From assembly GCF_041916735.1 (NCBI RefSeq), contig NZ_JAYRYY010000017.1: DNA of 64,000 nt. The stretch is one strand, 5' to 3'. A program made the translations under genes and the position numbers. Of this stretch, positions 1 to 8,743 are shown in pieces. Origin of the DNA: Zoogloea sp. GTDB lineage: Bacteria; Pseudomonadota; Gammaproteobacteria; Burkholderiales; Rhodocyclaceae. Numbering within the stretch: position 1 is the first letter of the stretch; the number at the start of each line of letters is the position of its first letter. Under the pieces are notes generated by a model. The model was not told where the DNA came from, did no database searches, and saw nothing but the letters and a program-made list of their open reading frames with translations.

Positions 1-417
1 GATCTGGGGCAGCCAGCTGTCCTGGTCCAGCACGGCATTGCCGAGCACCCGCAGCTTGACCCCGAAGACGTCCTGATTGAAGGCGAATCCGTTCCCCAGC
101 CCGAGTGCGCCGCCCACCTCGCGGGTGTTGAAGCGCTGGCGGGCGTAGGACAATTCGAGGCGATCCCACAGGCCCACGGCGACGCCGCCCGTGGCCAGCC
201 CGTAGTCCTGGGACCACACGCCGGTGTAGAAGGCGCTGGCGCCGATCTGGTCGCGGGTGCCGTAACCGGCGATCACCGCCCACGGCGTCAGCCCCCCGCC
301 GGCCGAGCCTTCCAACTGGGTGACGCCGCCCGTGAGCAGCAGCTTGTCGCTGCCGGCGAGGGCGGGCAATGCGGCCCCCCAGGCAAGCATGAGGGTCAGT
401 TTCTTGATAACGTGCAT
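1..417 (-). CDS. DUF3034 family protein, predicted exported/outer-membrane beta-barrel (N-terminal part only; runs off the window edge)
   Basis: Manual translation: MHVIKKLTLMLAWGAALPALAGSDKLLLTGGVTQLEGSAGGGLTPWAVIAGYGTRDQIG...GVKLRVLGNAVLDQDSWLPQI. Signal peptide followed by the GGV..EG.AGGG.TPWA motif I associate with DUF3034; GGAGG RBS upstream. Confidence 0.8.
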   Translation of the reverse strand, partial: MHVIKKLTLMLAWGAALPALAGSDKLLLTGGVTQLEGSAGGGLTPWAVIAGYGTRDQIGASAFYTGVWSQDYGLATGGVAVGLWDRLELSYARQRFNTREVGGALGLGNGFAFNQDVFGVKLRVLGNAVLDQDSWLPQI

Positions 418-481
418 GGCAATCTACCTCCCGAGGTCTTGAATTGGGCGGCGCATTCCTCACCGGGTCCGCCGCACCCCA

Positions 482-510
482 ATTACGCGGGGTGTGGCAA
501 TCCGGATGCA
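482..510 (-). promoter_or_regulatory. Putative ECF sigma promoter TGCATCC-N16-CGTAAT driving the DUF3034 gene
   Basis: Reverse complement of 482-510 reads TGCATCC ggattgccacaccccg CGTAAT; same motif and spacing as 542-570 and 2261-2288. Confidence 0.75.
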
Positions 511-541
511 CACGGGCTTGCCCGCCCGCCATGGCCGGTCC

Positions 542-570
542 TGCATCCGCCAACGCGCCGTGTGCGTAAT
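542..570 (+). promoter_or_regulatory. Putative ECF sigma promoter TGCATCC-N16-CGTAAT driving the sigma/anti-sigma operon
   Basis: TGCATCC (542-548), 16-nt spacer, CGTAAT (565-570), about 105 nt upstream of the sigma start; ECF genes are commonly autoregulated. Confidence 0.75.
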
Positions 571-677
571 GGGGGAACACGCTGCCGTTCATGCTGGTCT
601 GCGCGCAGCGCCCCCGATCCACTCCCGGAGTTGTCCGAAATGGCCTCTGACGCCTGTCACTGCAAGGAGCGATGTCC

Positions 678-1352
678 ATGACCGAGGAGCTGCTGCCGGT
701 GATCCCGCCTGGCACCGCCCGGCCGCCCGGCCCCCTTGATGAGGGAGAAACGGGTGTGCCCCGGCGAGAAGAATGGGCTGCGCCGGATGATCTTGAACTG
801 GAGGCTTGTCTGAAACGCATCGGCGGTGGCGACGAGCTTGCCCTGGCCGACCTCTACGACGCCACCTGTGGTCGGGTGAATGGCATCGTCCTGCGCATCG
901 TCCGGGATACCGTGGCTGCCGAAGAGGTGGTGGAGGATGTCTTCTTCCAGGTATGGCGTCAGGCACTGCGCTACGATCCGGCCCGCGGTCGGCCGTTGGC
1001 GTGGATACTGACCATTGCGCGCAGCCGTGCGCTGGACCATCTGCGTCGCGCCGACCCGGCCGTGTGTCATCCCGAACCGCATACGCTGCTGGAATTCGAA
1101 CCCCATGCCGGCGGCGACCCGCCCGATCTTCTCGCCGCCTGCCAGGACAGCAGCCTCGTGCACGCCGCCCTGGCGGCCCTTGATCCCATACCGCGTCAGC
1201 TGGTGGCTCTGGTCTTTTTCCGCGGCCTTACCCACGAGGAAGTCGCCCAGCATGCAGGCCTGCCCCTCGGAACCGTCAAATCCCACGTCCGGCGTGCGTT
1301 GCTGAGTCTGCGTGCAACGCTGACCGCGCATATCGACAGGAGCACTGCGTGA
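678..1352 (+). CDS. ECF RNA polymerase sigma factor (SigK/RpoE-like)
   Basis: Region 2 (LADLYD...AEEVVEDVFFQVWRQA.RYDP.RG.PLAWILTIARSRALD) and region 4.2 (GLTHEEVAQHAGLPLGTVKSHVRRAL). AAGGAG spacing favours ATG 678 over 672. Confidence 0.92.
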   Translation: MTEELLPVIPPGTARPPGPLDEGETGVPRREEWAAPDDLELEACLKRIGGGDELALADLYDATCGRVNGIVLRIVRDTVAAEEVVEDVFFQVWRQALRYDPARGRPLAWILTIARSRALDHLRRADPAVCHPEPHTLLEFEPHAGGDPPDLLAACQDSSLVHAALAALDPIPRQLVALVFFRGLTHEEVAQHAGLPLGTVKSHVRRALLSLRATLTAHIDRSTA

Positions 1353-2185
1353 TGATGAACAACAAACACATGCTTGATCCCGACGATCCGGCCGGCGGGG
1401 GTGATGTGCACGACCATCTGCTCGAAGCCATTACGCCCGTCCCCTTGTCCCCCGATCGGGCTGATGCCGTGAAGCAGCGTCTGCTCACCCGTATCCGCGC
1501 CAGCCGCACTGCCGGTGCCGACTTCATCCATGTGCGCCTTGAGGAGGGCGAGTGGGGCCGTCTGGTGCCCGGCGTTCGCGTCAAGCGCCTGAGTGGCGAC
1601 GCCCGCTCGGTGCTGCTCGAACTGCAACCCGGCGCGGCGATCCCCTTCCATCGTCATCATGAAGACGAGGAATGCGTGGTGCTCCGCGGTGAGGCCCAGT
1701 TGGGCGATATCACCGTGGGGGTCGGCGACTATCACCTGGCCCGTTCCGGCAGTCGCCACGGTATCGTGCGTTCGGCTCGCGGGGCCCTGCTCTACCTGCG
1801 CGGCACGCCCATCGGCCATGGTATGGAGGTCGCCAGGGACGTGATCAGCGCCCTGCTCCCCGGTCGCGGTCAGGTGCCCCTCACGGTGCACCGCGACGAG
1901 GGAGAATGGACCGAACGCCAGCCCGGTGTCCGCCTCAAGCTGCTGCATGACGACGGGCACGAGCGCTCCCTCCTGCTCAGCCTCGCCCCGGGCGCCCATG
2001 CCGACTTCCGCGATCCGCCCCTCGACAGGGAATGCCTGGTGATCGAAGGCGAGGCCTTTGCGGGTGACAGGTTGCTGCGCGCCGGCGATTACCAGCTCGC
2101 CCCTGATGGAGTGCGGCAGCCGCCCTTAAGCAGCGACGTGGGCAGCCTGCTTTTCGTGCGTTCGTCGAGCCGGCCGGCCGCCTGA
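1349..2185 (+). CDS. ChrR-like anti-sigma factor with tandem cupin domains
   Basis: Overlaps the sigma stop (GTGA). Two cupin repeats (W..LVPGV.VK.L...S.LLEL.PG..IPFHRHHEDEECVVLRG and W...PGVRLKLL...SLLLSLAPGA...ECLVIEG). Confidence 0.82.
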   Translation: MMMNNKHMLDPDDPAGGGDVHDHLLEAITPVPLSPDRADAVKQRLLTRIRASRTAGADFIHVRLEEGEWGRLVPGVRVKRLSGDARSVLLELQPGAAIPFHRHHEDEECVVLRGEAQLGDITVGVGDYHLARSGSRHGIVRSARGALLYLRGTPIGHGMEVARDVISALLPGRGQVPLTVHRDEGEWTERQPGVRLKLLHDDGHERSLLLSLAPGAHADFRDPPLDRECLVIEGEAFAGDRLLRAGDYQLAPDGVRQPPLSSDVGSLLFVRSSSRPAA

Positions 2186-2260
2186 GGGGGGTGTCCGCGC
2201 CCTGCGGGCCGGGTGACTGCGTCTTCTGACGTGGCACCCGGCCCGCGGTGCTTCAGGCCG

Positions 2261-2288
2261 TGCATCCAGGCCGGTATGGGCTGCGTAG
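2261..2288 (+). promoter_or_regulatory. Putative ECF sigma promoter TGCATCC-N16-CGTAG driving ferritin-like/cytochrome c genes
   Basis: TGCATCC (2261-2267), 16 nt, CGTAG (2284-2288), 47 nt upstream of ATG 2335. Confidence 0.72.
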
Positions 2289-2334
2289 AGGGGTTGAAGC
2301 ACCCGTTCCCATCCCCTCGTCAAGGAGTCAGACC

Positions 2335-2913
2335 ATGTCCGCCAATACCCTTCCTGCCCGCCGCAACTTCCTGTCCACCTCCGGCAAGGCCACCCTCTCG
2401 GTTGCCGCCATCGCCCTGCTTGCCGGGCGCCCCGATCTGGCCTCAGCCGCCCCAGGCGACATGGGCAAGGATGTGGACATCCTCAACGTCGCCCTGGGCC
2501 TCGAACACGAGGCCATCAACGCCTACCAGCTTGGCGCGGGCAGTGGCCTCTTGCAGAAGCCGGTGCTCGACGTGGCCGTGCTGTTCCAGTCCCATCACAA
2601 GGGGCACCGGGACGCGCTCATTGCCACCATCGAGAAGATGGGCGGCAAGCCGGTGATGGAAAGATCCCTCGACGACTACGCCAAGGCCCTCAATGCCGGC
2701 ACGCTGAAAAGTCAGGCCGATGTGCTGGCCCTGGCCACACGGCTCGAACTCGGCGCCGCCAATGCCTATCTTGGGGTGATCCCGTCCTTCAAGGACGCGG
2801 CGCTGGCCCAGGTGGCCGGGCGCCTCGCCGCCGACGAAACCATGCACTGGACGGCCTTGTCGTCCGCGCTGGGTCGCACGCTTCCGGCCAAGCCGCTGAG
2901 CTTCGGCGCATGA
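2335..2913 (+). CDS. Tat-exported ferritin-like (four-helix dimetal) protein
   Basis: Twin-arginine signal PARRNFL; ferritin-like ligand pattern LEHEAINAY, HHKGH, LELGAANAY, DETMH; AAGGAG RBS. Confidence 0.85.
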   Translation: MSANTLPARRNFLSTSGKATLSVAAIALLAGRPDLASAAPGDMGKDVDILNVALGLEHEAINAYQLGAGSGLLQKPVLDVAVLFQSHHKGHRDALIATIEKMGGKPVMERSLDDYAKALNAGTLKSQADVLALATRLELGAANAYLGVIPSFKDAALAQVAGRLAADETMHWTALSSALGRTLPAKPLSFGA

Positions 2914-3272
2914 AGCCCGCACTGTGCCTGGCCCTGGCCGGCCTGGCGGTGCTTGCGGCACCTGCCGGGGCGGCCGATGACGCCGACCCGGGCCGCGCCC
3001 TCTATGAGGCGCGCTGCGGTGGCTGCCACGCCCTCGCCGCGGACCGGGTCGGGCCGCGCCATGCCGGGGTGATCGGCCGCAAGGCGGGCAGCATCGCCGG
3101 CTTTGCCTACTCCCCGGCGCTCGCCCGCTCGCAGATTGTGTGGACCGAGGAGAGCCTGGAGCGCTGGCTGCGTGACCCGGAGGCCCTGGTGCCGGGCCAG
3201 CGGATGAACTTCCGGCTTGGCGACGCGGAGGAGCGGCGGCGGATCGTCGATTACCTGAGCCGCAATCGCTAG
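2910..3272 (+). CDS. Class I c-type cytochrome (cytochrome c2-like)
   Basis: Signal peptide, CGGCH heme motif, VGP, GR.AGS..GF.YS.AL, PGQRM axial Met; ATGA overlap with the ferritin-like gene. Confidence 0.92.
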   Translation: MKPALCLALAGLAVLAAPAGAADDADPGRALYEARCGGCHALAADRVGPRHAGVIGRKAGSIAGFAYSPALARSQIVWTEESLERWLRDPEALVPGQRMNFRLGDAEERRRIVDYLSRNR

Positions 3273-3276
3273 CGTC

Positions 3277-4230
3277 TCACGCTACCCGGTTGCGCGCCTC
3301 CCCGGCGGCGAAGGCTTCGATGTTGCCGATCAACTGGTCCGCCAGGGCCTGCATGGCCTCCCGGCTGGACCAGGCCACGTGGGGGGTGAGGATGAAGTTG
3401 CCCGCGTCCAGTAAATCGTGAGCGAGAAGGGGATTGTCCCGGGGTGGCTCCTCGCTCAGCACGTCGAAGCCGGCGCCGCCGATCTGCCTGTGGCGCAGGG
3501 CCTCGGCGAGGGCTGCTTCATCCACCAGACCACCGCGGGCGGTGTTGATGAGCAGGGCGCCGGGCTTCATGGCGGTGAGCTCTGCCGCACCGATCATGTG
3601 CCGGGTGGCGTCGTTGAGGGGGCAGTGCAGGCTGATTACGTCGGCTTCGCGGAGTAGCTGCGGGAAGGCCACGTAGCCTTCGCGCACCGTGTCGGCGCCC
3701 TTGCGCTCGCCGCGGATCACCCGCATGCCGAAGGCCTCGGCGAGGCGGGCGACGCCGTCGCCCAGGGTGCCGCTGCCGAGAATGCCCAGGGTCTGGCCGG
3801 CCAGGTCGCGGATGGGGTAATCGAAATAGCAGAACTGCTCGCTTCGCTGCCAGCGCCCGGCCGCCACCGAGCGGTGGAAGGGGCCGATCTGCCGGGACAG
3901 GGCCAGCAGCAGGGCAAAGACGTGCTCCGGCACGGTCTCGCGGGCGTAGCCGCGCACGTTGGAGACGACAATGTCGCGGGCCCGGCAGGCCTCCAGATCG
4001 ATGTTGTTGTAGCCGGTGGCGGCAATCGCCACCATCTTCAGTCGTGGCACGCCGGCCAGGATGTCGGCGGTCAGCAGGCGCTTGTTGACGACGGCAATGG
4101 TGGCGTCGGCCAGACGGGCCGCCACGTCTTCCTGGCGGGTGGCGTCGAATTCAATCCACTCGTGGGCAAAGGCCGGGCGCCGGACCTGGGCGATCAGGGC
4201 GCCGGCTTCAAGATTGACGATGCGGTGCAT
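3277..4230 (-). CDS. hprA: D-2-hydroxyacid dehydrogenase (glycerate dehydrogenase/hydroxypyruvate reductase-like)
   Basis: ATGYNNID, G.LG.G.LG Rossmann motif, DVISLHCPL, LINTARGGLVDE, DVL..EPP, LTPHVAW. Confidence 0.85.
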   Translation of the reverse strand: MHRIVNLEAGALIAQVRRPAFAHEWIEFDATRQEDVAARLADATIAVVNKRLLTADILAGVPRLKMVAIAATGYNNIDLEACRARDIVVSNVRGYARETVPEHVFALLLALSRQIGPFHRSVAAGRWQRSEQFCYFDYPIRDLAGQTLGILGSGTLGDGVARLAEAFGMRVIRGERKGADTVREGYVAFPQLLREADVISLHCPLNDATRHMIGAAELTAMKPGALLINTARGGLVDEAALAEALRHRQIGGAGFDVLSEEPPRDNPLLAHDLLDAGNFILTPHVAWSSREAMQALADQLIGNIEAFAAGEARNRVA

Positions 4231-4308: not shown

Positions 4309-4941
4309 TCAGAACTCCACGCCGGCCTGGGCGGCGATGCCGGCCTTGAAGGCGTGCTTGACGACACCCATCTCGGTGACGGTGTCGGCGGCTTCGATCA
4401 GGGCCTCGGGGGCGCCGCGGCCGGTGACGATGACGTGCTGCATTTCGGGCCGGCTGTTGATGTCGTGGAGGACTTCGGCCAGGTCCAGGTAGGCGTACTT
4501 GAGGGCGATGTTGAGTTCGTCGAGGACGACCAGGCCGATCTCCGGATTGTCCAGGAAGCGCCGCGCCTGTTCCCACCCGGCTTTGGCGCTGGCCATGTCG
4601 GCACTGCGGTCCTGGGTGTCCCAGGTAAAGCCGTCGCCCATGACGTGCCAGCTCACCTCGGGCTGGCGGCGGAAGAAGGCTTCCTCACCCGTGTCGGAGC
4701 GGCCTTTGACGAACTGCACCACGCCCACCTTCATGCCGTGGCCGATGGCCCGGGCGAGTACGCCAAAGGCGGCGCTGGACTTGCCCTTGCCGTTGCCGGT
4801 GTTCACCAGCAGCAGGCCGCGGGTGTCGGTGGCGGCGGCGATGGCCGCGTCAACCACGGCCTTCTTGCGCTCCATGCGGGCCTTGTGGCGGGCGTTGCGT
4901 TCTTCGTCGGTGGACGTTGCGTTCAGGTCGGTTGCGCTCAT
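4309..4941 (-). CDS. cobO: Cob(I)yrinic acid a,c-diamide adenosyltransferase
   Basis: TGNGKGKSSAAFG, VVQFVKG, GFTW, VLDELN, VIVTGR, AD.VTEM..VKHAF..G..AQ.GVEF. Confidence 0.96.
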   Translation of the reverse strand: MSATDLNATSTDEERNARHKARMERKKAVVDAAIAAATDTRGLLLVNTGNGKGKSSAAFGVLARAIGHGMKVGVVQFVKGRSDTGEEAFFRRQPEVSWHVMGDGFTWDTQDRSADMASAKAGWEQARRFLDNPEIGLVVLDELNIALKYAYLDLAEVLHDINSRPEMQHVIVTGRGAPEALIEAADTVTEMGVVKHAFKAGIAAQAGVEF

Positions 4942-4970
4942 GGCTTCTCTCGGGGGTGGTTGTGACCGGT

Positions 4971-5753
4971 TCAGACCGGCACGAACAGGGTGTGTTCGCC
5001 ATCGGCGATGGCCCGCAGGGGGTGGCCGAAGGCGGCAGACAGACGCCCAGTGGTGAGCACCTCGGCCGCCGGGCCGATCACGTGGCCGCCCTCACCGTTG
5101 AGCAGCAGCACATGGCTGGCGTAGCGGGCGGTGAGGTTGATGTCATGGAGGACCATCACCACTCCCGCACCACTGCCGGCCAAGCCGCGAAAATGATCGA
5201 GAACGGCAACCTGATGGTGCAGATCCAGGTGGGCCAGGGGTTCATCGAGCAGATACAGGCGTGGCTGCTGGACGAGCAGGGTGGCAATGGCCAGGCGCTG
5301 GCGCTCGCCGCCGGAAAGGGTGGGTACCTGGCGCGTGGCAAAGCTTTCCAGGCCCATCTGCGCCAGGGCGGCCAGGGCAATCGCTTCGTCGTCCGGGCCT
5401 TCCCAGTCCCAGCGGCCCAGGTAGGGGTGGCGGCCGACCAGGGCGGTTTCCAGCACTGTGGCGCTGAAGAAGTCGGGCTGGCTTTGGGCGAGCAGGCCGC
5501 GTAGGCAGGCCTCATGGCCCCGGGGCCAGCCGGCGTAGGGCTGGCCGGACAGCAGCACGGCGCCACGGGCGGCATCGCGCAGGCCGGCGAGGGTATGGAG
5601 CAGGGTGGTCTTGCCGGCGCCGTTGCGGCCAAGGATCACCAGGGTGTCTCCGGCCTGGAGGGTGAAATCCAGCTCGCGACACACCTCCCGGCGCCCCACC
5701 TGGACGGTGAGCCGTTCGGCGGCCAGCACGGGGGGGCGGGCATCCATCTTCAT
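4971..5753 (-). CDS. btuD: Cobalamin/Fe3+-siderophore ABC transporter ATP-binding protein
   Basis: Walker A GRNGAGKTT, LSGGERQR signature, LLDEP, HD; ATGA-coupled to the permease. Confidence 0.88.
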   Translation of the reverse strand: MKMDARPPVLAAERLTVQVGRREVCRELDFTLQAGDTLVILGRNGAGKTTLLHTLAGLRDAARGAVLLSGQPYAGWPRGHEACLRGLLAQSQPDFFSATVLETALVGRHPYLGRWDWEGPDDEAIALAALAQMGLESFATRQVPTLSGGERQRLAIATLLVQQPRLYLLDEPLAHLDLHHQVAVLDHFRGLAGSGAGVVMVLHDINLTARYASHVLLLNGEGGHVIGPAAEVLTTGRLSAAFGHPLRAIADGEHTLFVPV

Positions 5754-6784
5754 CGCGGGTGACGGGCCAGCAGGAACAGGAACACGGGCACGCCGATCAG
5801 GGCGGTGAGCACCCCCACCGGCAGCTGGATGGGGGCCACGACGGTGCGTGCCGCGGTGTCGGCGGCGCACAGCAACACACCGCCGGCCAGGGTGGCGGCG
5901 GGCAGCAGCAGGCGCTGGTCGTTGCCGATGGCCAGGCGCACCAGGTGGGGCACGATCAGGCCGATGAAGCCTACCGAGCCGACGGTGGTGACCGCTACGG
6001 CAGTGAGCAGGGAGCCCAGACCGTAGACCAGCCCGCGCAGGCGCCCGACCCGCACGCCGAGGGCGCGGGCGGTGACTTCGCCACGGGTCAGCAGGTTGAG
6101 TTCGCGGGCGAAGGGCAGGGCCGCCGCAAGTCCGACGGCCAGCAAGGCCAGGGCCGGCCACGGCCGGGTGGCGCCGCTGGCGTCACCCATCAGCCAGAAC
6201 AGCATGCCCTTGACCCGCCCCTCCGGGGCCAGACTGAGCATCAGGGCCACCGCCGCGCCGCAGCCGGCGGCGACGATGACGCCGGTGAGGAGGAGACGGG
6301 TCTGGGTCCAGGACCCGTCTCCGTGGGCCAGCCCGAAGACCAGCAGGGTGGCGCCGAGGGCGCCGATGAAGGCTCCCGCGTCGATCCAGCCGGCCACGGC
6401 TCCGGCCAGGATGGCACCCAGCGCACCGACGGCAGCCCCGCCGGAGATCCCCAGCACGTAAGGATCGGCCAGGGGGTTGCGCAGCAGCACCTGCATCAGC
6501 GCACCGGCCAGGGCCAGCAGGCCACCGCAGGCAAAGGCGGCCACGGCCCGCGGCAGGCGCAGGCTGCGGATGATGTCGGCCTCCATGCCACCTTCGGTGC
6601 CGGAGAGGGCGGTCAGGAGGTCGTCGAAGGAGACCGGCAGGGCGCCGGCCGAGAGGGACCAGACAAAGGCCGCGAGAGCCGCCAGCACCAGGCCGGCGAG
6701 CACTGCCGCGGCGCGGCGGCGCAACGACAGCATGCCGGTGTTGCACCTTGCGGCCTGCTCCTGGGCCATGGTCCCTCCGCTCAT
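5750..6784 (-). CDS. btuC: FecCD/BtuC family ABC permease
   Basis: LRLPR, Q.LLRNPLADPY.LG.SGGAA, G.VGFIGL.VPH..R, LPVG..TAL.G.PVF. Confidence 0.9.
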   Translation of the reverse strand: MSGGTMAQEQAARCNTGMLSLRRRAAAVLAGLVLAALAAFVWSLSAGALPVSFDDLLTALSGTEGGMEADIIRSLRLPRAVAAFACGGLLALAGALMQVLLRNPLADPYVLGISGGAAVGALGAILAGAVAGWIDAGAFIGALGATLLVFGLAHGDGSWTQTRLLLTGVIVAAGCGAAVALMLSLAPEGRVKGMLFWLMGDASGATRPWPALALLAVGLAAALPFARELNLLTRGEVTARALGVRVGRLRGLVYGLGSLLTAVAVTTVGSVGFIGLIVPHLVRLAIGNDQRLLLPAATLAGGVLLCAADTAARTVVAPIQLPVGVLTALIGVPVFLFLLARHPR

Positions 6785-6787
6785 GTC

Positions 6788-8593
6788 TTACTTCGGAGCG
6801 TAGCGTACGCCGACGAAGACGTTGGCGCCGGGGGTGTTGTAGCCGTAAGCGGTCTCGTATTGCTTGTCGAGCAGGTTGTTCATCCGCCCTTCAACGGCCC
6901 ATTCGTGGGTGAGGGCGTACTTGGCATAGGCGTTGAGTACGCCATAGCCGCCCAGCGGACGGATCTCGTTGGCCCGGTCGTAGCGGTCGCCGGAGCCGCG
7001 CCACTCGACACCCATGGTGAGCGCCTGGATGCGCCGGCTGATGGAAAGGTTGGCGAACTTGTTGGCGCGGCGTTGCAGGCGCTTGTCCGTGTCGGCGTCC
7101 TTCGGGTCGAGGAAGTCCACGCTGGCGCTCAGGTCGAAGCCGGCCAGTTGTCCACCGTAACCCAGGGTGATGCCCTCGAGCTTGGCATTGGCCACGTTGC
7201 GGGGGATGAAGTTCTGGTCGTTGGCGATCAGGTTGCTGATGCGGTTGCGGTAATAGGTGGCGCTCAGGTTGTGGCTGCCCTTTTCCCACAGCAGGCCGAT
7301 TTCCTTGTTGTAGGCATTCTCGGGCTTCAGCTCGGGGTTGCCGAAGCCCGGGTAGTACAGCTCGTTGAAGGTCGGCGCCCGGAAGGCTGAGCCGATGCTG
7401 CCCTGGACGCGCAGGGTTGGCAGGATCTGGTAGCCGTAGCCGGCGTAGCCTGTGGTCTTGCCGCCGTACTGGGAGTTGTCGTCGTGGCGGGCGTTGAGCT
7501 GCAGGCGGTGGGCGTCGATGCTCGCCGTCCAGCCGAGCAGGAAGGAATTGACCGAGCGGCTGACATCGAAGGTGCCTTCGTTGGTGGCCTTTTGGTGCAG
7601 GTTTTCGTAGGCGGCAAGCAGGCTGCCCACCGGCAGGCGCACATCGTGCTGCCACATGAACTGGTTCTGGGTGGTCTTGATGGTGGCGCCGTTGGGAGCG
7701 TAGGAGGCGAAGTTCTCGTAATCGTCGATGGACTGGCCGAAGCGCACGGTGCTGGTCCAGATGTCGGTGAACCGGTTGCGACTGTAGAGGTTCCAGGCGC
7801 TCTGGGCGGCGTTGTTGTAGTTGTTGTAGGTCCGGCCCGAGTCGTACATGGAGCGGCTTTCGGCATAGAGCACCGAGCCGCCCAGTTCGTGACCAGCGGC
7901 AGGGCGCCAGGCGAAGTTGCCCGAGAAATTGCCGTTGCGGTACAGGTCGTTGTCGGGGTTGTAGGTGGACAGCTTGCGGTTCTGCGCGCTGAAGCTGTCC
8001 GTCTGGGAATAGCCGCCGCGTGCCGAATAGGATATCTGCTCGGTGCCGCCCGCCACGCCGGCGGAGACTTCACGGGTGCCGTAGCTGCCGGCGCCCACGA
8101 AGGCATTGATCTTCGGTTCGCCGCGGCCTTTTTTGGTGATGACCTGTATCACACCGCCGATGGCGTCGGCACCATACAGGGCCGAGGCGGGGCCGCGGAC
8201 GATCTCGATGCGTTCGATCTGGGACAGGGGAATGTCCTGCCAGGCGGCCGTGCCCAGGGTGGCGGAGCCCAGGCGCATGCCGTCCACGAGGAACAGGGTG
8301 TGCTTGGAGTTGGTGCCGCGGATGGAGATGTCGGTGGCCTTGCCCGGGCCGCCGTTGGAACTCATCTGGATGCCGGGCTGGCGGGCCAGCAGTTCGGGCA
8401 GCGAGAAGCTCGGGCCGGCCCGTTCGATACTCTCGCGGTCGATCACCGTGGTGTCGGCGATGGCCTCGTCGGCACGCTGGGCCTGACGGGTGGCGGTCAC
8501 GGTCACGGTGGGTTGATCGGTCCCGGCGGCCAGTGCTGGGGTAGAAAAAGCGGCAGCGACCGCGATGGCGGCAGCGGAAAGGCGGATGATCAT
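6788..8593 (-). CDS. btuB: TonB-dependent vitamin B12 receptor
   Basis: Signal peptide, TonB box TVTVTATR, plug motifs (IRGTNSKHTLFLVDG, IERIEIVRGPASALYGADAIGGVIQVIT), C-terminal N.LDK.YE...GY..PG; lies downstream of a cobalamin riboswitch. Confidence 0.93.
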   Translation of the reverse strand: MIIRLSAAAIAVAAAFSTPALAAGTDQPTVTVTATRQAQRADEAIADTTVIDRESIERAGPSFSLPELLARQPGIQMSSNGGPGKATDISIRGTNSKHTLFLVDGMRLGSATLGTAAWQDIPLSQIERIEIVRGPASALYGADAIGGVIQVITKKGRGEPKINAFVGAGSYGTREVSAGVAGGTEQISYSARGGYSQTDSFSAQNRKLSTYNPDNDLYRNGNFSGNFAWRPAAGHELGGSVLYAESRSMYDSGRTYNNYNNAAQSAWNLYSRNRFTDIWTSTVRFGQSIDDYENFASYAPNGATIKTTQNQFMWQHDVRLPVGSLLAAYENLHQKATNEGTFDVSRSVNSFLLGWTASIDAHRLQLNARHDDNSQYGGKTTGYAGYGYQILPTLRVQGSIGSAFRAPTFNELYYPGFGNPELKPENAYNKEIGLLWEKGSHNLSATYYRNRISNLIANDQNFIPRNVANAKLEGITLGYGGQLAGFDLSASVDFLDPKDADTDKRLQRRANKFANLSISRRIQALTMGVEWRGSGDRYDRANEIRPLGGYGVLNAYAKYALTHEWAVEGRMNNLLDKQYETAYGYNTPGANVFVGVRYAPK

Positions 8594-8743
8594 TTTATGG
8601 TTTCTCCCTTGCCCGGCCGCGTCCCCGCCGCCGGGTGGATTGCGCATGGCGGCGCCGGGGGAGGTTTTGCAGAGAGAGTCCGGAAAGATCCATGACCGCG
8701 CTCGTCGCCACCACCCCGTGGCACTGCCGCTTCATGTGATCAA

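What the first reader, a model, noticed from the sequence alone, without database searches (positions are those of the whole stretch)
2335..3272. Tat-exported ferritin-like protein translationally coupled to cytochrome c
Seen: RRNFL Tat motif, E/H ligand pattern and ATGA overlap with a single-heme cytochrome. Known: Tat export implies cofactor loading before export, and most ferritin-like stress proteins are cytoplasmic. Inference: a periplasmic dimetal redox enzyme with a dedicated electron partner.
Basis: partly seen in the sequence, partly recalled or inferred. Interest (0 to 1): 0.55.

Follow-up and report, generated by a model that had tools for sequence, protein, structure and literature searches.

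The report
Exported ferritin-like protein with own cytochrome
A Zoogloea gene pair encodes a metal-binding ferritin-like protein, apparently exported folded to the periplasm, and a small cytochrome c found almost only beside it; both sit behind a stress-type sigma-factor promoter, so they look like an undescribed periplasmic redox stress module whose chemistry is unknown.

Summary
Window 2335-2913 encodes a 192-aa Ferritin_2/DUF4439 protein with an invariant twin-arginine signal. It overlaps by ATGA a 120-aa mono-haem class I cytochrome c (2910-3272).

The pairing is conserved but not universal.
- 57 of 78 close loci, and about half of an even sample of the order, have the cytochrome directly downstream.
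- In reverse, 18 of the 20 best matches to the cytochrome in 401 genomes lie next to a ferritin-like gene.

The putative metal ligands (E57, H88, H91, E138, D167/E168, H171) are invariant in 120 homologues. They differ from the only characterised relatives, the FeMP phosphatases: the bridging Glu is His, and the Asp essential for phosphatase activity is Ala.

The operon has its own ECF-type promoter-like site (TGCATCC-N16-CGTA). The same site precedes the sigma gene and a divergent operon encoding DUF3034 and a secreted truncated globin. It recurs before these genes in about 70 related loci.

Best reading: an ECF-controlled periplasmic dimetal redox protein with a dedicated cytochrome partner, most likely reducing an oxidant. 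The metal, the substrate and the direction of electron flow are untested. The scan did not find this on other DNA; another note (e1-5248876) covers the same stretch.

The parts
1..417 (-). 5' part of a DUF3034 gene (286 aa in full; it runs off the left end of the window). It is followed on the same strand, outside the window, by a gene for a secreted group I truncated globin.
   Evidence: Pfam DUF3034: 134.8 bits for the part in the window and 354.4 bits for the whole protein (L081:7560-8417). The globin lies at L081:7106-7540 (-): Bac_globin 55.3 bits; best match among solved structures is M. tuberculosis HbN, E 1e-16.
484..509 (-). ECF-type promoter-like site (GCATCC-N16-CGTA) facing the DUF3034 gene
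   Evidence: 3 sites in the window against 0.06 expected. The same motif lies upstream of DUF3034 genes 27 times in the 80 related loci.
543..568 (+). ECF-type promoter-like site facing the sigma gene (probable autoregulation)
   Evidence: The same motif lies upstream of sigma genes 33 times in the 80 related loci.
672..1352 (+). ECF sigma factor, SigK-like
   Evidence: Pfam Sigma70_r2 and Sigma70_r4. Best NCBIfam model is SigK PRK09646 at 151 bits, below its cut-off of 226.
1349..2185 (+). Presumed anti-sigma factor with two ChrR-type cupin stretches. It overlaps the sigma gene by GTGA.
   Evidence: Pfam Cupin_7, 73.7 bits in 2 stretches. NCBIfam ChrR models match weakly, below their cut-offs. 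The overlap is seen.
2199..2251 (+). Inverted repeat (17-nt arms, 88% complementary, 19 nt between them) lying between the anti-sigma stop and the next promoter-like site. It may be a transcript-end hairpin, but no run of T follows it.
   Evidence: I9. The terminator scan did not call it.
2262..2287 (+). ECF-type promoter-like site about 50 nt upstream of the ferritin-like gene
   Evidence: The strict or relaxed motif is found upstream of the homologous gene in about 72 of 79 loci, and the joint form TG[AC]ATCC-N15-18-CGTA 60 times. A stricter form occurs 5 times in the genome against 0 in the control, and 3 of the 5 are at this locus.
2335..2448 (+). Twin-arginine (Tat) signal peptide, residues 1-38, with predicted cleavage after A-S-A
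   Evidence: Sequence; RR invariant; model pLDDT is low here, as expected for a signal peptide.
2335..2913 (+). Ferritin-like protein (Ferritin_2/DUF4439), 192 aa, with a four-helix bundle at residues 43-178. Putative metal ligands: E57, H88, H91, E138, D167/E168, H171. Invariant tyrosines: Y64, Y115, Y145.
2910..3272 (+). Mono-haem class I cytochrome c, 120 aa, with a Sec-type signal, CGGCH at 3015-3029 and the Met99 codon at 3204-3206. Its start overlaps the upstream stop (ATGA).
   Evidence: The operon ends here, because a convergent 2-hydroxyacid dehydrogenase gene ends at 3277.

Best explanation
The two genes form one operon behind their own ECF sigma promoter. Shown by sequence: the first product is a ferritin-like four-helix bundle with an invariant twin-arginine signal. 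Inferred from this: it is exported folded to the periplasm, probably with two metal ions (iron or manganese) already bound in the cytoplasm. The site is formed by E57, H88, H91, E138, D167/E168 and H171. The second product is a small soluble cytochrome c of the c2/c550 type, secreted by Sec. Its orthologues occur almost only next to this ferritin-like gene, so it is the protein's own redox partner. Inferred mechanism: after the sigma factor is released from its cupin anti-sigma factor (RskA in most relatives), the cell makes the pair. In this genome it also makes a DUF3034 protein with a signal-peptide-like N-terminus and a secreted HbN-like globin. The cytochrome then carries electrons from the respiratory chain to the dimetal site, which reduces a periplasmic oxidant (hydrogen peroxide or a related reactive oxygen or nitrogen species). 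The logic is that of rubrerythrin with rubredoxin, or of cytochrome c peroxidase, but built on a different scaffold. The general statement (exported, metal-binding, redox-coupled to a dedicated cytochrome, ECF-controlled) is the part I rate at 0.55. I rate the peroxidase-like direction and substrate at about 0.3.
For: Family and fold: Pfam Ferritin_2 and DUF4439; AlphaFold2 model with mean pLDDT 86.7; structural matches to Rv2844 (Z 19.5), a mini-bacterioferritin (18.8), PA4880 (18.5) and RvFeMP-1 (17.5) (Foldseek). Export: RR motif invariant; TatC present. Metal site: all candidate ligands and three tyrosines are invariant in 120 genomic homologues, whatever the neighbouring gene. Partner: the cytochrome is directly downstream in 57 of 78 uncut close loci and in about 17 of 33 evenly sampled loci, including both copies in a genome of another family of the phylum (L092, L095). 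Of the 20 best cytochrome matches (E up to 2.4e-24) in 401 genomes of the order, 18 lie next to a ferritin-like gene. The starts overlap or abut the upstream stop in most pairs. On the tree, the pairing is spread over deep branches. Pairwise divergences of the two proteins are correlated (Mantel r 0.58, 0 of 2000 permutations reach it). Regulation: the promoter-like motif occurs 3 times in the window against 0.06 expected. In the 80 related loci it occurs 144 times against about 3 expected, and 123 of these lie upstream of ferritin-like, sigma, DUF3034 or DUF3455 genes. Against a phosphatase role: the Asp that RvFeMP-1 needs for activity (D135; PMC11616004) is Ala in 27 of 32 and in 118 of 120 homologues, and the bridging Glu90 is His. 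Context: an exported HbN-like globin is in the same regulon here and lies within 5 kb in 35 of 80 loci.
Against: No metal, activity or localisation has been measured for any member of this subfamily. The only characterised PF13668 proteins are hydrolases, not redox enzymes (PMC11616004). The nearest structural neighbour, Rv2844, belongs to DUF4439. A preprint predicts proteins of that family to be non-enzymatic partners of a DD-carboxypeptidase (bioRxiv 10.64898/2026.07.15.738315). About a quarter of close loci and about half of the wider sample lack the cytochrome yet keep every ligand, so the protein can work without it or with another partner. Homologues at 34-52% identity fetched from metagenomes have no cytochrome beside them. 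No ferritin-cytochrome fusion was found. The cytochrome could instead serve the globin of the same regulon. The direction of electron flow is a guess.
Confidence: 0.55

Rival explanations
1. Electrons flow the other way. The ferritin-like protein is a periplasmic ferroxidase or manganese oxidase. It oxidises Fe(II) or Mn(II) at a bacterioferritin-like centre and passes the electrons to the cytochrome c and on to a terminal oxidase. This would remove Fenton-active metal from the periplasm during stress.
For: The fold and ligand spacing are like the ferroxidase centre of bacterioferritins and DPS-like proteins. A tyrosine seven residues after the first Glu (Y64) is invariant, as in ferritins and bacterioferritin (my own knowledge). 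Many hosts are freshwater Comamonadaceae and Rhodocyclaceae (Sphaerotilus, Rhodoferax, Aquabacterium, Acidovorax). Tat export of a metal oxidase has a precedent in CueO (my own knowledge).
Against: The model is a monomeric 4-helix bundle and shows no sign of a cage, so there is no store for the product. No iron-uptake or iron-regulation genes lie in the locus. Replacing a bridging Glu by His is not seen in known ferroxidase centres, as far as I know. No data bear on it directly.
Confidence: 0.15
2. The protein acts on nitric oxide or peroxynitrite. It works with the secreted HbN-like globin of the same regulon, and the cytochrome c re-reduces one or both proteins.
For: An HbN-like globin with a signal peptide lies in the divergent operon behind the same promoter motif. 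A homologous globin lies within 5 kb in 35 of 80 loci. A site rich in both His and carboxylates recalls the diiron sites of NO-reducing flavodiiron proteins (my own knowledge). The hosts are typical denitrifying sludge and freshwater bacteria (names; the physiology is my own knowledge).
Against: The globin is absent from more than half of the loci, and it also occurs in loci that lack the cytochrome. No denitrification genes are adjacent. The similarity to flavodiiron sites is in ligand composition only, not in fold.
Confidence: 0.1
3. The protein is not a redox enzyme. It is either a metal-dependent hydrolase like the FeMP phosphatases, or a non-catalytic envelope protein (a metal buffer or chaperone, or a regulator of a cell-wall enzyme as predicted for mycobacterial DUF4439 proteins). 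In this case the cytochrome is only a co-regulated neighbour.
For: The closest characterised relatives are phosphatases (PMC11616004). The best structural match is Rv2844, a DUF4439 relative, and a preprint predicts DUF4439 proteins to bind the carboxypeptidase DacB. The cytochrome can be lost while all conserved residues stay.
Against: The Asp needed for FeMP activity is Ala, and a bridging Glu is His. The invariance of six or seven metal-type ligands argues for a working metal site. The cytochrome orthologues are found almost only beside this gene, which is hard to explain without a functional link. No peptidoglycan enzyme recurs among the neighbouring gene clusters that were annotated.
Confidence: 0.15

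Closest known systems
FeMP metabolite phosphatases of Pfam PF13668: tardigrade RvFeMP-1 (PDB 8kce, 8w9k, 8wai, 8x1k) and Deinococcus radiodurans DRB0118
   Same: Same Pfam family. Best sequence match among solved structures (E 1e-3 with one sequence, 2e-11 with a profile). Same four-helix bundle (Z 17.5, rmsd 2.0 over 141 residues). Secreted and linked to stress. Four of the six published ligands have equivalents here (E51/E57, H93/H91, E132/E138, D162/E168).
   Different: The bridging Glu90 is His88, and Asp135, whose mutation abolishes phosphatase activity (PMC11616004), is Ala141; both changes are near-invariant in this subfamily. There is no IgG-like domain. The signal is Tat-type rather than a eukaryotic secretory signal. 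There is a cytochrome c partner and an ECF promoter.
Mycobacterial DUF4439 proteins Rv2843 and Rv2844 (PDB 2ib0)
   Same: The DUF4439 model is passed (40.1 bits). Rv2844 is the best structural match (Z 19.5, rmsd 1.6 over 132 residues). Rv2843 is reported as a Tat substrate, so ferritin-like proteins exported by Tat are already known.
   Different: Only 23-24% identity. Those proteins are predicted to form a complex with the DD-carboxypeptidase DacB. No cytochrome partner or ECF promoter is described for them. I did not test whether they keep a metal site.
Ferroxidase centres of bacterioferritin and DPS-like proteins (E, ExxH, E, ExxH)
   Same: Fold and helix register. The ligand spacing is similar, and a tyrosine lies seven residues after the first Glu (sequence; the comparison rests on my own knowledge of E. 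coli bacterioferritin numbering).
   Different: Helix B carries HxxH instead of ExxH. There is an extra invariant Asp167. The protein is periplasmic, no cage-forming features were examined, and it has a c-type cytochrome partner rather than bound haem b or a Bfd ferredoxin.
Rubrerythrin with rubredoxin, and bacterial di-haem cytochrome c peroxidase (analogues in function only)
   Same: The proposed logic is the same: a small one-electron carrier feeds a metal site that reduces peroxide. Cytochrome c peroxidase does this in the periplasm with cytochrome c as donor (my own knowledge). Some sources label relatives 'rubrerythrin'.
   Different: It is a member of neither family. It has no rubredoxin domain, it did not match a rubrerythrin Pfam model, and it has no haem sites of its own.
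SigK-RskA type ECF regulons (Mycobacterium tuberculosis mpt70/mpt83; Yersinia cassette)
   Same: The sigma factor's best curated model is SigK. In 46 of 80 related loci the anti-sigma factor is RskA. These are small local regulons of exported proteins with an autoregulated sigma gene (PMC7509140). As I recall it, the -35 element CATCC resembles the published SigK site; I could not check this, because Veyrier 2008 is not held.
   Different: Here the anti-sigma factor is a soluble double-cupin protein, not RskA. The targets are a ferritin-like protein with its cytochrome c and a DUF3034 protein with a globin, not fasciclin-domain proteins.

Membership tests
Pfam PF13668 Ferritin_2 | Profile score above the gathering cut-off | tested here: met
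   87.2 bits against a cut-off of 24.7, covering residues 45-180 and model positions 1-137 of 138.
Pfam PF13668 Ferritin_2 | Ferritin-like four-helix bundle | tested here: met
   AlphaFold2 model with pLDDT of 90 or more over most of residues 41-180, and helices 43-69, 75-101, 127-151 and 155-178. Z 17.5-19.5 to ferritin-like structures.
FeMP metabolite phosphatases (RvFeMP-1, DRB0118) | Catalytic Asp at the M2 site (Asp135 of RvFeMP-1; D135A or D135N abolishes activity) | tested here: not met
   The aligned residue is Ala141. It is Ala in 27 of 32 and in 118 of 120 homologues. The requirement is from PMC11616004.
FeMP metabolite phosphatases (RvFeMP-1, DRB0118) | Bridging Glu in helix B (Glu90 of the ExxH motif) | tested here: not met
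   The aligned residue is His88. It is His in 31 of 32 and in 120 of 120 homologues.
FeMP metabolite phosphatases (RvFeMP-1, DRB0118) | Phosphatase activity | not testable with these tools
   Needs an enzyme assay.
Pfam PF14530 DUF4439 | Profile score above the gathering cut-off | tested here: met
   40.1 bits against a cut-off of 28.8. This is weaker than the Ferritin_2 match on the same residues.
Canonical diiron-carboxylate centre (E, ExxH, E, ExxH) | ExxH in both helix B and helix D | tested here: not met
   Helix D has E168-x-x-H171, but helix B has H88-x-x-H91.
Tat-exported proteins | Twin-arginine consensus (S/T-R-R-x-F-L-K), then a hydrophobic region and an AxA site | tested here: met
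   A-R-R-N-F-L-S at residues 8-14, a hydrophobic stretch at residues 19-31, and A-S-A at 36-38. RR is invariant. No dedicated predictor was available, and no NCBIfam family matched the protein at E 0.01 or better.
Tat-exported proteins | Tat machinery present in the genome | tested here: met
   TatC (PF00902) at 244 bits at G000:C3:225889-226521.
Tat-exported proteins | Export that depends on Tat | not testable with these tools
   Needs cell fractionation in a tatC mutant.
Class I c-type cytochromes (c2/c550 type) | One CxxCH site near the N-terminus, a distal Met ligand near the C-terminus, and a signal peptide | tested here: met
   C36-G-G-C39-H40 and M99 in a P-G-Q-R-M-N-F context, each kept in at least 90% of 47 orthologues. 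Pfam Cytochrom_C 32.4 bits against 21.3. The NCBIfam CycA model gives 63.9 bits against a cut-off of 240, so it is not an equivalog of CycA.
SigK-type (ECF19-like) sigma factor regulon | Sigma factor passes a curated SigK model and is paired with RskA | tested here: inconclusive
   SigK PRK09646 gives 151 bits against a cut-off of 226. The partner here is a double-cupin protein. In relatives, a sigma factor 31-42% identical is paired with RskA_C.

The most novel reading that the evidence does not exclude
This is the first member of an undescribed class of periplasmic non-haem dimetal enzymes that take electrons from a dedicated c-type cytochrome, so that it works as a cytochrome c dependent reductase of an oxidant (peroxide or NO) built on a ferritin fold. 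Together with a secreted HbN-like globin and a DUF3034 protein, it forms a self-contained stress module switched on by an ECF sigma factor, found in about one in nine genomes sampled across the order (45 of 401).
Probability: 0.3. Interest if true: 0.7.

Novelty: new variant of a known kind. Interest (0 to 1): 0.55.

Why it matters
PF13668 and DUF4439 are large families linked to stress, and they are almost uncharacterised. The only biochemistry so far, from 2024, is a phosphatase. This subfamily keeps the fold but has changed two key ligands and acquired its own cytochrome c and its own ECF promoter. That points to a second, redox chemistry for the family.

If this is confirmed, it would add a new kind of periplasmic defence enzyme, or metal oxidase, to the few already known (cytochrome c peroxidase, CueO, MsrP). 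It would also give a function to a regulon whose other members (DUF3034, DUF3455, a secreted truncated globin) are likewise unexplained. The module is small and self-contained, and it sits in culturable wastewater and freshwater bacteria, so it is directly testable.

Tried and rejected
1. Phosphatase by homology: rejected as the default reading, because the essential Asp and a bridging Glu are replaced.

2. Fused ferritin-cytochrome proteins as direct evidence of a link: a search among longer proteins gave six singletons and none carried a cytochrome domain. P0273 is a read-through of the adjacent genes with a frameshift. The tool warns that this is weak evidence of absence.

3. Genome-wide regulon by the loose motif GCATCC-N15-17-CGTA: 24 hits against 23 in the control, so it is uninformative. 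Only the clustering at this locus, the stricter motif and conservation across loci carry weight.

4. Sigma-70 promoter and intrinsic terminator scans of 380-3400: nothing useful.

5. Using structural neighbours to choose a function: all top matches are generic ferritin-like bundles (Rv2844, bacterioferritins, Dps, Mn catalase, symerythrin) and do not discriminate.

6. Distant homologues from metagenomes (34-52% identity): no cytochrome beside them. The pairing was found only among the Burkholderiales-type homologues plus one genome of another family of the phylum.

7. Literature searches for ferritin-like plus Tat, ECF, cytochrome, DUF3455 or DUF3034 found no description of this system. A Delftia RNA-seq paper reports that a ferritin-like gene, DUF3455 genes and fasciclin genes rise together on soybean roots (PMC7725335). 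I could not check whether that gene is an orthologue.

8. The published SigK promoter sequence could not be checked, because the paper is not held.

10. Unpublished genomes G423 and G673 appear with weak cytochrome matches.
Full report
**What is there**

The window lies on contig C17 of a 4.6-Mb genome. The closest homologues carry Zoogloea names.

ORF 2335-2913 (+) encodes 192 residues. It begins with A-R-R-N-F-L-S, then a hydrophobic stretch and A-S-A. It matches Pfam Ferritin_2 (87.2 bits; cut-off 24.7) and, more weakly, DUF4439 (40.1 bits; cut-off 28.8); no NCBIfam model names it.

Its stop codon overlaps, as ATGA, the start of ORF 2910-3272. That ORF is a 120-residue protein with a signal-peptide-like N-terminus, a single CGGCH site and Met99 in a P-G-Q-R-M-N-F context. 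It is a class I cytochrome c of the c2/c550 type (Pfam Cytochrom_C 32.4 bits; the CycA model scores 63.9 bits, far below its equivalog cut-off). A convergent 2-hydroxyacid dehydrogenase gene ends at 3277, so the operon has two genes.

**Fold and metal site**

An AlphaFold2 model built on 32 diverse homologues has mean pLDDT 86.7. It shows a four-helix bundle between residues 43 and 178, and a low-confidence N-terminus as expected of a signal peptide.

Foldseek and VIA-align both return ferritin-like bundles:
- Rv2844 of M. tuberculosis (2ib0): Z 19.5, rmsd 1.6 over 132 residues
- a mini-bacterioferritin: Z 18.8
- the DPS-like protein PA4880: Z 18.5
- tardigrade RvY_06210: Z 17.5

Further down come Dps proteins, Mn catalases and symerythrin. 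These matches fix the fold but not the function.

By sequence, the only solved relative is RvY_06210, also called RvFeMP-1. That protein and D. radiodurans DRB0118 are the only characterised PF13668 members. They are metal-dependent metabolite phosphatases with ligands E51, E90, H93, E132, D135 and D162, and D135A or D135N abolishes activity (PMC11616004).

In the HMMER alignments the equivalents here are:

| RvFeMP-1 | This protein |
|---|---|
| E51 | E57 |
| E90 | H88 |
| H93 | H91 |
| E132 | E138 |
| D135 | A141 |
| D162 | E168 (or the adjacent D167, depending on the alignment) |

H171 follows in an ExxH arrangement. So the bridging Glu of helix B has become His, and the Asp essential for phosphatase activity has become Ala.

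These are not accidents of one sequence. Two sets of homologues were checked: 32 representatives at 34-71% identity and 120 genomic homologues.

| Residue | In 32 representatives | In 120 genomic homologues |
|---|---|---|
| H88 | 31 | 120 |
| H91 | 30 | 120 |
| E138 | 32 | 120 |
| H171 | 32 | 120 |
| Y64 | 32 | 120 |
| A141 | 27 | 118 |

E57, D167, E168, Y115 and Y145 are also invariant or nearly so in the 120 homologues, and the two arginines of the signal are present wherever that column is not a gap (118 of 120).

A fully conserved set of three His and three or four carboxylates on the four helices is what a working dinuclear metal site would look like. It is not the FeMP site, and it is not the canonical E/ExxH/E/ExxH centre.

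**Is the gene pairing conserved?**

I fetched 80 loci from species-representative genomes (68-97% identity, nearly all Burkholderiales in the GTDB sense).
- A homologue of the window's cytochrome lies directly downstream, on the same strand, in 57 loci.
- Two loci are cut by a contig end.
- 21 loci lack it.
- Where it is present, its start usually overlaps or abuts the upstream stop. The ATGA overlap is the commonest arrangement: 15 of the 46 orthologue loci.

In an even sample of 401 genomes of the order, 45 carry the ferritin-like gene (26 of 168 genera). In an even sample of the phylum, only 6 of 401 do. Of about 33 of these loci with enough flank, about 17 have the cytochrome. They include homologues at only about 50% identity, and both copies in a genome of another family of the phylum.

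The reverse test is sharper. I searched the same 401 genomes with the cytochrome. Of the 20 best matches other than the query itself (E up to 2.4e-24), 18 lie within a few hundred bases of a ferritin-like gene. Weaker matches are scattered paralogues or domains of larger proteins. So the cytochrome belongs to an orthologous group found almost only as the partner of this gene.

On a FastTree phylogeny of the ferritin-like proteins, the paired state is spread over deep branches. The unpaired loci fall into several separate clades, which looks like repeated loss or replacement. Pairwise divergences of the two proteins are correlated (r 0.58; no permutation of 2000 reaches it). The cytochrome diverges about twice as fast. 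This shows co-inheritance, not necessarily co-evolution.

In the Comamonas and Hydrogenophaga clades the downstream gene is instead a DUF3455 lipoprotein. In one locus (L073) the cytochrome gene lies about 0.7 kb downstream rather than directly after the ferritin-like gene; it was classed with the DUF3455 loci, so a DUF3455 gene probably lies between them.

Three distant homologues from metagenomes (34-52% identity) have no cytochrome neighbour. No true ferritin-cytochrome fusion was found.

**Regulation**

GCATCC-N16-CGTA occurs three times in the 64-kb window against 0.06 expected:
- at 2262-2287 (+), about 50 nt before the ferritin-like gene
- at 543-568 (+), before the ECF sigma gene (672-1352)
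- at 484-509 (-), before the divergent DUF3034 gene

A loose version of the motif is at chance level genome-wide. The stricter TGMATCC-N14-16-GCGTA occurs five times against none in the control, three of them here.

The decisive evidence is comparative. Upstream of the ferritin-like gene, TG(C/A)ATCC-N16-17-CGTA is present in about 72 of 79 loci, although the spacers have diverged. Across the 80 loci (730 kb) the motif occurs 144 times against about 3 expected:

| Position of the motif | Occurrences |
|---|---|
| Upstream of ferritin-like genes | 60 |
| Upstream of sigma genes | 33 |
| Upstream of DUF3034 genes | 27 |
| Upstream of DUF3455 genes | 3 |
| Elsewhere | 21 |

The sigma factor's best curated model is SigK, below its cut-off. 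Its partner here (1349-2185, overlapping the sigma gene by GTGA) has two ChrR-type cupin stretches. In 46 of the 80 loci the partner is instead an RskA-type anti-sigma factor. SigK-RskA systems are known as small local regulons of exported proteins with conserved binding sites, in Gram-negative bacteria too (PMC7509140).

**The rest of the module**

Just outside the left edge of the window, the DUF3034 gene (286 aa, with a signal-peptide-like N-terminus) is followed after 16 nt by a 144-aa group I truncated globin, also with a signal-peptide-like N-terminus. The globin's best match among solved structures is M. tuberculosis HbN (E 1e-16).

A census of the 80 loci, within 5 kb, gives:

| Neighbouring gene | Loci out of 80 |
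|---|---|
| Sigma factor | 61 |
| Cytochrome c | 57 |
| RskA | 46 |
| Globin | 35 |
| DUF3034 | 34 |
| DUF3455 | 25 |
| Cupin anti-sigma factor | 14 |

So all four effector products in this genome (DUF3034 protein, globin, ferritin-like protein, cytochrome c) carry export signals, and three of them are metalloproteins.

**How it most likely works**

Shown:
- family, fold and signal motifs
- ligand conservation
- synteny
- promoter conservation

Inferred:
- The protein binds two metal ions. Iron or manganese is likely, because Tat export allows such metals to be loaded in the cytoplasm (my own knowledge).
- It exchanges electrons with its cytochrome.
- The module answers an oxidative or nitrosative stress.

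I favour electron flow from the respiratory chain through the cytochrome to the dimetal site, with reduction of a periplasmic oxidant. This is how small c-type cytochromes normally serve periplasmic reductases such as cytochrome c peroxidase. The regulon's sensors (a ChrR-type cupin; SigK-RskA, which is reported to be redox-sensitive) and the HbN-like globin also point to reactive oxygen or nitrogen species.

The rivals, none excluded, are:
- the reverse flow, as a ferroxidase or manganese oxidase
- a role tied to NO and the globin
- a non-redox role, as a hydrolase, metal buffer or envelope regulator of the kind predicted for mycobacterial DUF4439 proteins

The loss of the cytochrome in a quarter to a half of loci, with no change in the conserved residues, is the main observation against an obligatory partnership.

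**Comparison and novelty**

The protein is a member of PF13668 and DUF4439 by profile and fold. It fails two defining features of the FeMP phosphatases and one feature of the canonical diiron centre.

Ferritin-like proteins exported by Tat are already known (Rv2843), so export alone is not new. The following appear undescribed: the HxxH subfamily, its dedicated cytochrome c, and its place in a conserved ECF regulon with DUF3034, DUF3455 and a secreted globin. This rests on five full-text searches that found nothing, and many subscription papers are not held.

One indirect lead remains unchecked for orthology. In Delftia acidovorans RAY209, a ferritin-like gene, two DUF3455 genes and fasciclin genes rise together on soybean roots (PMC7725335).

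I file this as a new variant of a known kind, with moderate interest: a clean, testable module of unknown chemistry rather than a surprise in itself.

Noticed in passing
L081:7106-7540 (-), about 460-890 bases to the left of window position 1, on the same contig: A group I truncated globin (144 aa; best match among solved structures is M. tuberculosis HbN) with a signal-peptide-like N-terminus lies 16 nt downstream of the DUF3034 gene, behind the same ECF promoter motif. A homologous globin lies within 5 kb in 35 of 80 related loci. To my knowledge, exported truncated globins are unusual.
   Followed up: partly
window 1349-2185 (+): The presumed anti-sigma factor has two ChrR-type cupin stretches, no Pfam match to a zinc-binding anti-sigma domain, and no obvious membrane segment. 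Most relatives of the locus use a membrane RskA instead. So the same regulon appears to be wired to two different sensors.
   Followed up: partly
L047:5603-6172 (+), and 24 other related loci: A DUF3455 lipoprotein-like gene follows the ferritin-like gene where the cytochrome is missing (Comamonas and Hydrogenophaga clades). In L073 it was detected together with a cytochrome gene about 0.7 kb downstream of the ferritin-like gene. Both DUF3455 and PF13668 also turn up in reports on fungal secretomes (PMC10051545).
   Followed up: partly
L007:3677-4168, L011:2645-3139, L016:3894-4400; L035:8775-10367, L058:2253-3869, L076:3012-4688; L040:2720-3868, L041:3569-4717: In related loci the same promoter-like motif also precedes genes for an SRPBCC/polyketide-cyclase-like protein, a secreted DUF4331 protein and an FMN-dependent dehydrogenase. 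These are possible further regulon members in other species.
   Followed up: partly
G000:C2:386630-386655 (-) and G000:C6:45853-45878 (-): The only two other genome-wide matches to the strict motif. Their spacers are one base shorter. The genes downstream of them were not examined.
   Followed up: no
window 4309-8647 (-): By eye from the ORF translations only, with no family search run: a cob(I)alamin adenosyltransferase-like gene, ABC transporter ATPase and permease genes, and a TonB-dependent receptor gene. This looks like an ordinary cobalamin-uptake cluster.
   Followed up: no
L081:3471-7085 (+), left of the window: A 1204-aa ORF that, by eye from its translation, looks like an SNF2-family helicase, next to the globin gene. 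No family search was run.
   Followed up: no
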